A stretch of 64,000 nt of DNA, from positions 2,356,001 through 2,420,000 of the forward strand of contig OY986946.1 in NCBI GenBank assembly GCA_963920595.1, written 5' to 3'. Position 1 is the stretch's first letter. Each line of letters begins with the position of its first letter. Positions 30,124-33,100 of this stretch are shown here, piece by piece. A program made the translations under genes and the position numbers. A model generated the notes under the pieces. The model ran no database searches and was not told the origin of the DNA. It saw only the letters and a list, made by a program, of their open reading frames with translations. The stretch comes from Eimeria praecox. Lineage: Eukaryota.

Positions 30124-30161
<38 letters not shown>
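30029..30161 (+). repeat. 65-bp tandem duplication of 28S sequence at the element 5' junction
   Basis: CAGTGGGAATCTC...GGCTACCT occurs at 30029-30093 and again at 30094-30158, followed by target-matching TAA. Confidence 0.97.
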
Positions 30162-33100
30162 TTTACAATAAATGATATTTTATCATTTTCAGTCATCTAA
30201 GAACCCCAGAAGGTAATTTTGCGCTCTCTTTTGTTGCGCAGAATTTACCGGCTGGGTTCGCGCGTCAGTGTCAGTGCCTGCGGCCGGTGCAAATCGGCTG
30301 CAAATCCTTCTCCTTTTTTATAATTCTTTTTTCTATAGCATTTAAAACATCAAATTTTAAAAGATGGAAGAAGAAGAGGTGAAAAAGGATGCGGTTTCAC
30401 CGCTGAACTCAGCTGCGCCCATGCGGCCCCCACAGCCGCAGCCGACTGCTCGGCCGAACAGCAGTTCAGCATTGAAAGAGGGCCCTTCTGGAATTATAAT
30501 TGCAAAACCAAGGACCTCCAGCAGCCGCAAAGAAGGAAAGGACTCAGAAGATTCTCAAGACGAGGAGGAAATGCAGATCTGCGAGCCCGCCCCACACATG
30601 GATCTGCCGCAACAAGACCCGTCTCCATGCAGTGAGGAGATAGAAGTAGAGCAGATGCTAGATACGGCAACTGATAATCAGATAGTCCCAGGTTCGATTC
30701 CCAGCAGGGAAACGGACGCTGATAGTCTACAACAACAGCCAGAGGGATTGCCAGAGCTCGATAGCGATACCTCGATCTGTCCTGTGGATACAGGACAGCT
30801 CGAAGTGTCGAACTCTACAGCCGTAGCAGATACCGTAGAGGCTCAAATGGTGGAGGAAACGGCTCACGGCCCCCAAGCAGCAGAGGAGAGCTGCCCTGAT
30901 AATGGGCAACAGCAGCAAGGGGGGCAATCTACAAGCCCTGCGCGGCTCATCAGCTTCAGGGATCTTGTCCGCCAGTTTGTAGAAGAACGCAGAGCCAGAA
31001 ACCTTACACCAGACGGAGAGGGGGAGTCACAGCAGTTAGCAGATGGCAGCAGCATACAAAAGGACAGCGTAGCTCCAGTGTTCAACTGGGGACAAAGGAG
31101 CAACGCAAATTCAGCAGAAAACACCCCAGAGAGCATCAACAGAACGCCAAAGGGGGTGGCCACACAGCCTGTCTGCTGCCCCAACTGCAAACGTGTATTC
31201 AACTCCGCAAGGGGGCTCTCCCTTCATACACGTAGGGGAGGAAAAGGCAGCTGCGCTCTGAGGAGAAGAGAAATCATCAATGAATGTCAGAACGTGGCAA
31301 CCCCCGCGCCGTTGACGTTCCGTCTCAATAAGCGCATCCAGGAGGAAGCAGATGAAGATGTAAACGAATTGGGTGATAGACCCCGTCTAGCAAAAAGAAG
31401 AAGGGGACGAAAAGCACCTACACAGGGCCCCCCAGAGCCGACTCCTACAGAAATGGCAGGGGATCGTGCGATGGCGGGCAGACAGGCAACACCGGCAGCA
31501 ACAGCAGAGCAGCACAGGCCTACAACAACCGACGGAGAGGCGCTGCTCATAGATAAGTGGCCGGAGAGAGCTCAACAGCAGAGGACCGACCCGATCACGC
31601 GTCGAAGACCACTTCGAATACCTCGTCTAACAGCAGAAGCGGGCGCAAGGCTTACAAGACAACTGATGGAACTTGCGCAAACTACTGCTACCAAGATGGT
31701 CGACAGCACTTGGGAAGAAGTGGAAGCCGCAGTAGAAGGCTTCGCTACCCAGCTTTATGATGCGATTTGGTTTGCAGATAAGAACACTAAGGAAGCAAAT
31801 CAACGTGGCAAGAAGAACAAGCCCTCAACGAACACCGAAGACTCAGGAATCCGAAAGACACGCGTGTCCCCAAGGCAGGCTCAAGCACAGGAAAACGTCG
31901 ACAAGGCGTTGCAAGCACTCCGAGCAGAGGAGAGAGCCCAGCAGGGGAAACAATCTGGAGCATCGCTTGATGATAAACTGAAGAAGCGTGCCCTTGAAAG
32001 AAATCTACGAACTGCGCGTCGTCGCCTCATCATGATCCTCAAAGAAGAGTCAGCACAAAATCTCCAAGCACTCTACATGAAAGACAGAAAGAAGTGTGTG
32101 GAGCAACTACTAGCTGACGAAGATCAACCTAGAAGCCAAGATTGTCCCATCCAACTCAGTGAGCTGGAGGCACACTTTAGAGATCAGCACTCTGAGCAAT
32201 TAATTGACTCCACTTCTGATGTTGCTCATGAGTTCTTAGACCCTTTGGCTTCAGCTCCTAGTGGAGCGTGTGCGATTGATCTATACTTCACAGAAGAGGA
32301 TGTGCGTGCTCAGCTGCTAAAGAGCAACCTTAAGTCTGCAGCAGGGCCAGATGGGATAGGGTTTTTTGTGTACAAGAGGTTTGAAGAGGTGCTTGTTCCA
32401 GCCATGACCGCGATATACAACGCGTGTTCTCGGCATCGACGTATTCCAGAGAAGTGGAAGGAAAGCGTGACCGTTTTGATTCCCAAGCAGGGCGATCCTA
32501 ACGATGTGAAGAATTGGCGACCCATCAATCTACAGGACTGTATCTACAAACTTTATGCAGCACTGTGGGCCAGCAGGATTACGGACTGGGCATCACAGTC
32601 CGGGGTCGCCTCCAAGTCGCAGAAGGGATTCATGCCAGTGAATGGGTGCCATGAGCACCTGTTTCTTGCCCAAAGCATCCTCAACTCCACGCGCAGAGGC
32701 TCGAAACCGCTGTACATGACGTACTACGACTTGAAAAATGCATTTGGATCCGTTCCCCACGAGCTCATACACGTTGTCTTGAAGGCTCAACGGCTACCGA
32801 AGCACGTTCGTGAGATCATCATGGATCTCTATCAAGGAGCGAGCTTCTGCGTAGTGACGAAGGAGGGCTGCACAGGTCGAATTGAGAACCGACGAGGAGT
32901 GAAGCAAGGGTGTCCTCTCAGCCCGATCCTCTTCAACCTAGCCATTGAGCCTCTCCTGCAGAGATTAGCAGCTTGTGATGCAGGCCTCGAACTGCGTACG
33001 ACAGACGGGAGACCGCCTGTGAAGGTCTCTCACATGGCGTATGCAGACGACCTCAAGACGGTTGCTAGTACTCGAGCAGGAATTTCTACACTTCATCAAG

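What the first reader, a model, noticed from the sequence alone, without database searches (positions are those of the whole stretch)
30133..30302. Structured 5' RNA module that pairs with the 28S-derived leader (candidate ribozyme or translation element)
Seen: leader TTAGATGAC (30133-41) is perfectly complementary to UTR GTCATCTAA (30192-200), enclosing the hairpin AAATGATA-TTT-TATCATTT (30170-88). A long hairpin spans 30201-30259 (GAACCC...GGTAA...GCGC/GCGC...TTACC...GGGTTC). A 10-bp stem with a GCAA (GNRA) tetraloop spans 30279-30302. Leader AGGCAT(T)TGGC (30143-53) could pair with GTCAGTGCCT (30270-79) as a pseudoknot. Established: R2 5' ends carry HDV-like ribozymes that often include 28S-derived bases. 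I could not fit a canonical HDV fold by eye, so this may be a different structure.
Basis: partly seen in the sequence, partly recalled or inferred. Interest (0 to 1): 0.72.

Follow-up and report, generated by a model that had tools for sequence, protein, structure and literature searches.

The report
Antisense rDNA retrotransposon with HDV-like fold
This is the front end of a retrotransposon that sits backwards in the 28S ribosomal gene of what is likely an Eimeria parasite, and its RNA is predicted to fold with a short piece of antisense ribosomal sequence into an irregular hepatitis-delta-like ribozyme shape that would cut or shield the start of the element's RNA.

Summary
The context differs from its reading. 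The rDNA runs on the minus strand and the element on the plus strand, so the leader is ANTISENSE 28S. The 1461-aa RT-RLE protein belongs to an Eimeria clade within the Utopia/NeSL lineage, not R2. Two of four target sites in the window carry the element, with the same 3' junction. 30200-30303 folds far better than shuffles (z about -5, best of 118 windows, plus strand favoured). A strict HDV descriptor and Rfam give no significant hit, and nested leader-UTR coupling is at chance level. A descriptor written after seeing this passed 0 of 500 shuffles. P3 is weak, two insertions are needed, and stronger hairpins compete. Best reading: an irregular, possibly switchable HDV-like 5' module (0.45); cleavage untested; no homologous UTR obtained. 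New variant of a known kind.

The parts
30029..30093 (+). Target-site copy of antisense 28S (upstream copy of the 65-nt duplication)
   Evidence: 100% identical direct repeat, spacing 65
30094..30161 (+). Duplicated antisense-28S leader (65 nt plus 3 further target bases); inferred to have been copied from the 5' end of the template RNA, start at -70 from the 3' junction
   Evidence: no microhomology at the join (sequence); RNA origin is inference from PMC3774820
30133..30141 (+). Leader strand pairing with 30192-30200 (9 Watson-Crick pairs); 30136-41 is also P1 5' strand of register B
30143..30149 (+). Candidate P1 5' strand (AGGCAUU) of register A; predicted cut would be 5' of 30143 (-21)
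30162..30363 (+). Element 5' UTR (202 nt)
   Evidence: ATG at 30364
30170..30188 (+). AU-rich 8-bp hairpin; holds an upstream AUG (30172)
30201..30259 (+). Long hairpin (-27.6 kcal/mol); its outer part sequesters the candidate P2 5' strand (30208-13) and P3/L3 start; inner part 30214-47 is compatible with register A
30254..30272 (+). Candidate P3/L3: GG, then UUCGCG (U..C..G pattern), then a 6-nt tandem repeat (UCAGUG twice); P3 only 2 bp in register A
   Evidence: sequence
30273..30280 (+). Candidate P1 3' strand (AGUGCCU) and J1/4 G that could pair with C30259
30279..30302 (+). 10-bp stem with GCAA tetraloop (candidate P4, 30281-30300)
30300..30311 (+). Candidate J4/2 G-C30301-A-A-A and P2 3' strand (30305/6-30311); 11 of 14 letters match the end of Rfam's CPEB3 consensus
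30364..34749 (+). Single ORF, 1461 aa: CCHC-type zinc finger, RT, CCHC zinc knuckle, restriction-like endonuclease motif; Utopia/NeSL lineage
34750..34946 (+). 3' UTR, no poly(A), no excess folding; 28S resumes at 34947
   Evidence: z -0.39; z 0.58
13106..16227 (+). 5'-truncated second copy, no mismatch to the full-length copy, same 3' junction
28993..37312 (-). Host 28S rRNA gene interrupted by the element

Best explanation
[quoted passage not shown] Shown: orientation, junctions, the 65-nt duplication, the intact ORF, an identical truncated copy, and the complementarities. Inferred steps: (1) the element is transcribed as part of an antisense RNA that starts inside or beyond the 28S gene; (2) register A forms: P1 30143-49/30273-79, J1/4 G30280 with C30259, L3-like 30257-62, P4 30281-300, C30301 as the catalytic base, P2 30208-13/30306-11, with the hairpin 30214-47 bulged from the P2 strand and a 6-nt repeat extending L3 (a second register B, with canonical strand order, would cut at -28 using C30290); (3) the long hairpin 30201-59 and the 9-bp helix are competing folds that would keep cleavage partial; (4) the leftover antisense-28S leader would anneal, as cDNA, to the target and prime second-strand synthesis, as in R2.
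For: Register A chain present once on plus, never on minus, 0 of 500 whole-UTR shuffles, 0 of 500 GC-core shuffles, 0 of 43 real 270-nt controls. Its halves tested apart pass in 3-14 of 400 shuffles and 0-1 of 43 controls. Register B also 0 of 500, 0 of 500, 0 of 43. On a 206-nt search Rfam's CPEB3 model gives a weak match at 30240-30311 that aligns the same J4/2-P2 letters. The U and G of L3 and the C and A of J4/2 named in PMC3774820 are in place. The duplication without microhomology indicates a template with upstream 28S sequence, as in R2 junctions. Folding is the strongest in the element and plus-strand biased.
Against: The descriptors were written after seeing the sequence, so the shuffle counts flatter the fit. 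A strict HDV descriptor finds nothing (it finds 20 of 20 synthetic positives); a loose one finds 15 cores on plus and 16 on minus, register B among them. The CPEB3 match is 10.4 bits against a cut-off of 35, E 5.2, 1 of 8 rows, and is absent from the 501-nt search. Register A needs a 40-nt insertion between P2 and P3, a 14-nt L3, a 2-bp P3 and A rather than G at +1. Register B has a P1 mismatch, a P3 of +1.7 kcal/mol and C in place of the L3 U. Competing hairpins are strong (-27.6 and -16.4 kcal/mol). In R2 the duplication length matches the cut site, but here it starts at -70, not -21 or -28. Nested coupling of leader and UTR is at chance level. No homologous UTR, so no covariation.
Confidence: 0.45

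Rival explanations
1. The module is three non-catalytic hairpins that serve translation (bypass of three short upstream ORFs) or binding of the element's protein; leader pairings and the HDV look are incidental, and the RNA starts at a promoter about 70 nt into the antisense 28S.
For: Hairpins dominate the predicted ensemble; coupling to the leader at chance level; AUGs at 30119, 30137 and 30172 open ORFs of 5, 12 and 14 codons; the duplication start fits an uncut 5' end at -70.
Against: Does not explain the contiguous P1'-G-P4-CAAA-P2' chain with an L3-like motif at the right place.
Confidence: 0.25
2. A non-catalytic pseudoknot built from both of the first reader's helices (30133-41/30192-200 and 30143-49/30273-79, plus 30150-52/30189-91) shields the RNA's 5' end from exonucleases.
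For: These are the two strongest leader-UTR helices. In HDV strand order they score better than 0 of 300 shuffled leaders and 0 of 177 real 68-nt controls; without the 3-bp helix 2 of 300 and 0 of 177. The linker 30189-200 binds the real leader better than all but 3 of 1000 shuffled leaders. R2 ribozyme folds are proposed to stabilise template RNA apart from cleavage (PMC11331408).
Against: Test designed after the fit; the other two linkers are unremarkable (231 and 491 of 1000; joint 30 of 1000); in this order the loop is 36 nt and no catalytic residues are in place; leaves the L3-like and CAAA motifs unexplained.
Confidence: 0.15
3. A decayed ribozyme or scrambled relics of target-site DNA picked up during past insertions; the complementarities have no present function.
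For: Patches 30192-200 and 30273-79 resemble sense 28S; R2 5' ends are known to gain target duplications that then decay (PMC3774820 section 18); the UTR holds small internal repeats (sequence).
Against: The family looks recently active (intact ORF, identical truncated copy), and the region keeps the strongest fold in the element.
Confidence: 0.1
4. The GC-rich core lies in a 5'-UTR intron (donor-like 30213, pyrimidine tract and AG at 30338) that is spliced out of the translated RNA and kept in the template RNA.
For: One donor-like site in the UTR and an acceptor with 12 of 15 pyrimidines upstream.
Against: Other acceptor-like sites score alike (12 and 11 of 15); AT-rich UTRs give such matches easily; no RNA data.
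Confidence: 0.05

Closest known systems
R2 5' HDV-like ribozymes (Eickbush et al. 2013, PMC3774820)
   Same: 5' end of an RLE non-LTR element in the same small 28S region; candidate P1 whose 5' strand is host 28S sequence; tandem duplication of upstream 28S at the 5' junction; predicted cuts at -21 or -28, inside R2's range of -9 to -36.
   Different: Leader is antisense 28S, so no Pol I co-transcript; protein is not R2; P2-P3 not contiguous and L3 long in register A; duplication length does not match the predicted cut; no activity shown.
CPEB3 / HDV-like ribozyme family (Rfam RF00622)
   Same: End of P4, J4/2 and P2 3' strand match 11 of 14 consensus letters; L3-like U-U-C-x-C-G and a single-G J1/4 (comparison of L3 rests on my own knowledge).
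   Different: Score 10.4 against 35 bits; insertions; weak P3.
Utopia (NeSL clade; Kojima and Jurka 2015, PMC4640811)
   Same: One ORF with N-terminal zinc finger, RT, zinc knuckle, RLE; 34-44% identity to oomycete, gregarine and animal members; groups with them in RT trees; a profile of the family pulled out U2-flanked elements.
   Different: Target is 28S, antisense, not U2 in sense; no RNase H hit; no ribozyme mentioned in the parts read; the 5' region of the U2-flanked L001 is not unusually folded (z -1.2) and has no blastn match to the module.
R5 and LIN9/24/26_SM of planarians (NeSL clade, 28S-specific); R9 of rotifers
   Same: NeSL-clade elements that moved to 28S are on record. From recall, not from a call: R5 inserts 8 bp upstream of the R2 site, which is where this 3' junction maps, and R9 lies in opposite orientation at another 28S site.
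   Different: R5/LIN form their own flatworm branch in the paper's tree and were not among my named rows; their orientation could not be confirmed; R9 derives from R2.
'LINE R2' hits in Eimeria (Mobilome of Apicomplexa, PMC9141347)
   Same: 17 MGEScan hits in Eimeria genomes, probably this family (inference).
   Different: The passages read give no target site, orientation, lineage or 5' structure; the listing table was not found in the held supplement.

Membership tests
HDV-like ribozyme | Strand order P1-P2-P3-L3-P3'-P1'-P4-J4/2-P2' (nested double pseudoknot) | tested here: met
   Registers A and B both have this order
HDV-like ribozyme | P2 5' strand directly followed by a 3-bp P3 and a 7-8-nt L3, P3' directly followed by P1' | tested here: not met
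   Strict descriptor 0 hits. Register A: 40-nt insertion, 2-bp P3, 14-nt loop. Register B keeps contiguity but P3 is +1.7 kcal/mol
HDV-like ribozyme | About 7-bp P1 without mismatch, purine (usually G) at +1 | tested here: inconclusive
   A: 7 bp, A at +1; B: 6 bp, G-U at +1, one mismatch; P1 mismatches lower activity
HDV-like ribozyme | L3 U and G of the reverse wobble, and P1.1 | tested here: inconclusive
   A: U30257, G30262, one G-C P1.1 pair; B: C instead of U, two P1.1 pairs
HDV-like ribozyme | Catalytic C and constrained A in J4/2 | tested here: met
   G-C-A-A-A at 30300-04 (A) and 30289-93 (B)
HDV-like ribozyme | Rfam model score at threshold | tested here: not met
   best 10.4 bits against 35
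HDV-like ribozyme | Mg2+-dependent self-cleavage 5' of P1 | not testable with these tools
   needs an in vitro assay
HDV-like ribozyme | Covariation of helices among homologues | not tested
   no homologous UTR obtained
Hammerhead, twister, twister-sister, pistol, hatchet | Rfam match or core motif | tested here: not met
   No Rfam row at E up to 10; no CUGANGA on either strand, no recalled twister or pistol motif on plus
R2 retrotransposon | Insertion at the canonical 28S site, co-oriented with rDNA | tested here: not met
   Antisense; 3' junction 8 nt from the R2 site (position of the R2 site recalled)
R2 retrotransposon | RT nearest to R2 | tested here: not met
   Best solved R2 228 bits against 500-620 bits for oomycete and unnamed relatives; my trees held no R2 row
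R2 retrotransposon | Myb domain (hallmark per PMC13188248) | tested here: inconclusive
   No Pfam Myb, no R2 chain matched by the N-terminal part; model shows a zinc finger and long helices but pLDDT 61, pTM 0.29, no Foldseek match at E 0.001
Utopia / NeSL clade | ZF-RT-ZF-RLE single ORF and RT affinity | tested here: met
   naming of the neighbours as Utopia rests on host match to PMC4640811 and on U2-flanked L001
Utopia / NeSL clade | U2 snRNA target (Utopia proper) | tested here: not met
   2 of 2 copies in 28S; so filed as Utopia-lineage, not as Utopia

The most novel reading that the evidence does not exclude
A Utopia-lineage retrotransposon of Eimeria switched from U2 to the reverse strand of the R2 region of 28S and carries an active, non-canonical HDV-like ribozyme whose P1 uses antisense rRNA, with a hairpin inserted in P2 that switches it off and on. 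It would release its RNA from an antisense transcript running against Pol I through the rDNA.
Probability: 0.3. Interest if true: 0.82.

Novelty: new variant of a known kind. Interest (0 to 1): 0.6.

Why it matters
The element alone is of note. Recent surveys report R2 only in animals and none in unicellular organisms, and apicomplexans carry few transposons. Here an apparently active site-specific RLE element sits in a protist's 28S, 8 nt from the R2 site but backwards: an independent arrival at the same target and a natural comparison for R2-based gene insertion. Its RNA must come from antisense transcription of rDNA, which is testable. If the module cleaves, it widens the HDV fold (insertion between P2 and P3, long L3), shows host antisense rRNA recruited into P1, and implies that strict descriptors miss such ribozymes. 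If it does not cleave, it is an ordinary structured UTR on an interesting element. I found no description of this family's target, orientation or 5' structure in ten full-text searches; Repbase, Fell et al. 2025 and its inventory, and the original R5 and R9 papers were not available, and any of them could already hold it.

Tried and rejected
No genome held for this window. DNA of close relatives: no confirmed locus in metagenome contigs (299 pattern matches, 0 confirmed), viral contigs (27, 0) or prokaryote genomes (34, 0). A second metagenome scan gave 4 loci of 189 matches, all distant (about 30% identity), two clearly U2-flanked, with no match to the module. Cluster look-up gave no accessions. 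No read-level result was obtained, which leaves junction variety and UTR variation open. Rfam at gathering threshold: only rRNA. Hammerhead, twister and pistol motifs absent on plus. The middle-stringency HDV descriptor gave one core, unrelated to registers A and B, and 20 of 40 shuffles had one. Leader-UTR duplex energy was at chance (336 of 500). Bacterial promoter scan irrelevant and at chance level. ESM Atlas gave only a 0.76 lead. Foldseek gave nothing at E 0.001; the wide VIA search was not run. Earlier scan notes: nothing in three look-ups. Two papers asked for were not held. R2 membership rejected as above.

Full report
Setting. The window is a tandem rDNA array whose 18S, 5.8S and 28S genes all run on the minus strand. 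Two 28S genes are interrupted by plus-strand ORFs: a full-length element at 30162-34946 with a 1461-aa ORF from 30364, and a 5'-truncated copy at 13106-16227 with no mismatch to it and the same 3' junction. Two further target sites (near 48777 and 62611) are empty, so 2 of 4 are filled. The 3' junction maps 8 nt upstream, in 28S sense, of the R2 site (the R2 position is recalled). At the 5' junction two target bases are lost and 65 nt of target are duplicated in tandem without microhomology.

Host and lineage. Pfam finds RT and the RT zinc-binding domain only. The nearest full-length proteins are unnamed (64-98% identity), followed by oomycete and animal proteins at about 28-39%. Among shorter proteins the named close hits are all Eimeria: necatrix, mitis, maxima, praecox (93% over 30% of the query), brunetti, media; a gregarine follows at 37%. 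The host is thus likely an Eimeria; the 18S agrees by my recall. Quick RT trees (62 rows chosen from 161 that passed a coverage filter; 26 rows) put the Eimeria clade (support 100) in a group with oomycete and gregarine sequences (99 and 96), beside animal and amoeba sequences. Neither tree has an R2 row, and the careful search did not finish. A profile of the clade and its sister retrieved 4 distant loci, two followed by a U2 fragment in sense, the hallmark of Utopia (PMC4640811, passages and parts 2-3). Solved R2 proteins score at most 228 bits. No Myb domain was detected, but the model is weak. Six runs from five studies hold half or more of the element's sampled words; one may be the source of the window.

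The observation. All listed helices exist. The UTR core folds far better than shuffles (z -4.5 to -5.8, 0 of 200), is the lowest of 118 windows in the element and favours the plus strand. Evidence that the leader takes part is mixed. Against: nested coupling energy is matched by 77 of 200 and 56 of 200 shuffled leaders, and duplex energy by 336 of 500 shuffled UTRs. For: the 9-bp Watson-Crick helix is reached by 30 of 1000 shuffles, the linker 30189-200 binds the true leader better than all but 3 of 1000 shuffled leaders, and three linkers jointly 30 of 1000. These nested tests cannot see pseudoknots.

Ribozyme tests. Rfam gives no ribozyme on 501 nt at E up to 10. A strict HDV descriptor finds nothing, a middle one is at chance, and a loose one finds 15 cores on plus and 16 on minus (the strict code recovers 20 of 20 synthetic positives). 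On 206 nt Rfam lists CPEB3 at 30240-30311 with 10.4 bits against 35 (E 5.2, 1 of 8 rows); the alignment matches 11 of 14 letters over the end of P4, J4/2 and P2'. It needs a 40-nt hairpin insertion between P2 and P3 and a 14-nt L3 that contains a 6-nt tandem repeat. Register B, one of the loose cores, has canonical contiguity: P1 30136-41/30270-75 with one mismatch, P2 30249-55/30294-300, weak P3, two P1.1 pairs, C30290. Each passed 0 of 500 UTR shuffles, 0 of 500 core shuffles and 0 of 43 real controls. Halves of register A passed 3-14 of 400 shuffles and 0-1 of 43 controls. All three descriptors were written after seeing the sequence, and three mutually exclusive fits cannot all be functional, so the counts show that the resemblance is uncommon, not that it is real. 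The three-hairpin fold is predicted to be more stable than any of them.

How it likely works. An antisense element cannot ride on the Pol I transcript. The duplication is best read as a copy of the template's own 5' end, as in R2 junctions where tandem duplications match the RNA's upstream 28S extension (PMC3774820, passages and sections 12 and 18); so the RNA likely begins in antisense 28S. A 5' HDV-like fold would trim it to -21 or -28, leave a leader that helps second-strand priming, and protect an uncapped end (PMC11331408, passages). The duplication starts at -70, so this copy came from an RNA not cut at either site; that fits partial, switch-controlled cleavage (switching and attenuation are described for L1Tc ribozymes, PMC4035085, passages) but fits equally a module that never cuts. 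One junction is thin evidence. I give 0.45 to the HDV-like reading, with about 0.3 that it is an active ribozyme.

What is known. MGEScan labelled 17 Eimeria sequences 'LINE R2' (PMC9141347, passages; the one held supplement file gave no hit for them, and the unseen table may bear on novelty). Split 28S genes were seen in E. acervulina without naming an element (PMC13107808, passages and parts 2-3). NeSL-clade elements in 28S are known from planarians. Passages of PMC10946416, PMC13580325, PMC13188248, PMC5035012, PMC12659853 and PMC11912684 showed no antisense 28S element and no Eimeria family of this kind; passages of PMC11620745 gave no fit to twister-sister-like loops that I could test. 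Opposite orientation of R9 and the 8-bp offset of R5 are recalled, not confirmed. Fell et al. 2025 was seen only as cited; its inventory holds many NeSL/Utopia elements.

Verdict. Observation confirmed; interpretation partly supported. It works like an R2 5' module in the best reading, but it fails membership tests for R2 and, on contiguity and model score, for canonical HDV-like ribozymes. New variant of a known kind; interest 0.6.

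Noticed in passing
window 48770-48830 (empty site) and all units: The host 28S has two compensatory pair changes against the Rfam consensus in the stem next to the target (helix 69 by recall): GGACGU/ACGUUC against GGGAGU/ACUCUC. The element's 3' junction lies in this altered strand.
   Followed up: partly
window 30147-30154: The 8 letters TTTGGCTA just upstream of the insertion also stand in the 5' part of the Rfam U2 consensus upstream of Utopia's site, though at a different distance from the junction; a possible bridge for the target switch, or chance.
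   Followed up: partly
window 30119, 30137, 30172: Three upstream AUGs open ORFs of 5, 12 and 14 codons before the main ATG.
   Followed up: partly
window 30213 and 30313-30338: Donor-like AG/GTAATT and a pyrimidine tract ending in TAG flank the GC-rich core.
   Followed up: partly
window 30248-30306: Small internal repeats: TCAGTG twice, TGCAAATC twice, CCGGCTG/TCGGCTG; 30247-54 can pair with 30281-88 (-17.6 kcal/mol) in place of the GCAA hairpin.
   Followed up: partly
window 34932-34946: The element's 3' end has no poly(A) and holds CCTTAA, the same letters as the target just upstream of the nick.
   Followed up: no
window 30157-30201: An alternative local hairpin (21-nt arms, 71% complementary) joins the last target bases with 30181-30201 and competes with the 9-bp helix.
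   Followed up: partly
L001 1-104 and 5157-5284; L002 4588-4734: Metagenome Utopia-type elements with a U2 gene end upstream (L001) and a 5'-truncated U2 downstream, in sense; L003 and L004 have a weak U2-like stretch upstream of the ORF.
   Followed up: partly
window 30762, 31602, 32962: Coding windows with low folding z (-4.85, -4.28, -3.9; 30 shuffles each); not examined.
   Followed up: no
window 28725-28793: Long (AT)n run in the spacer just beyond the 28S 3' end, among longer spacer repeats.
   Followed up: no
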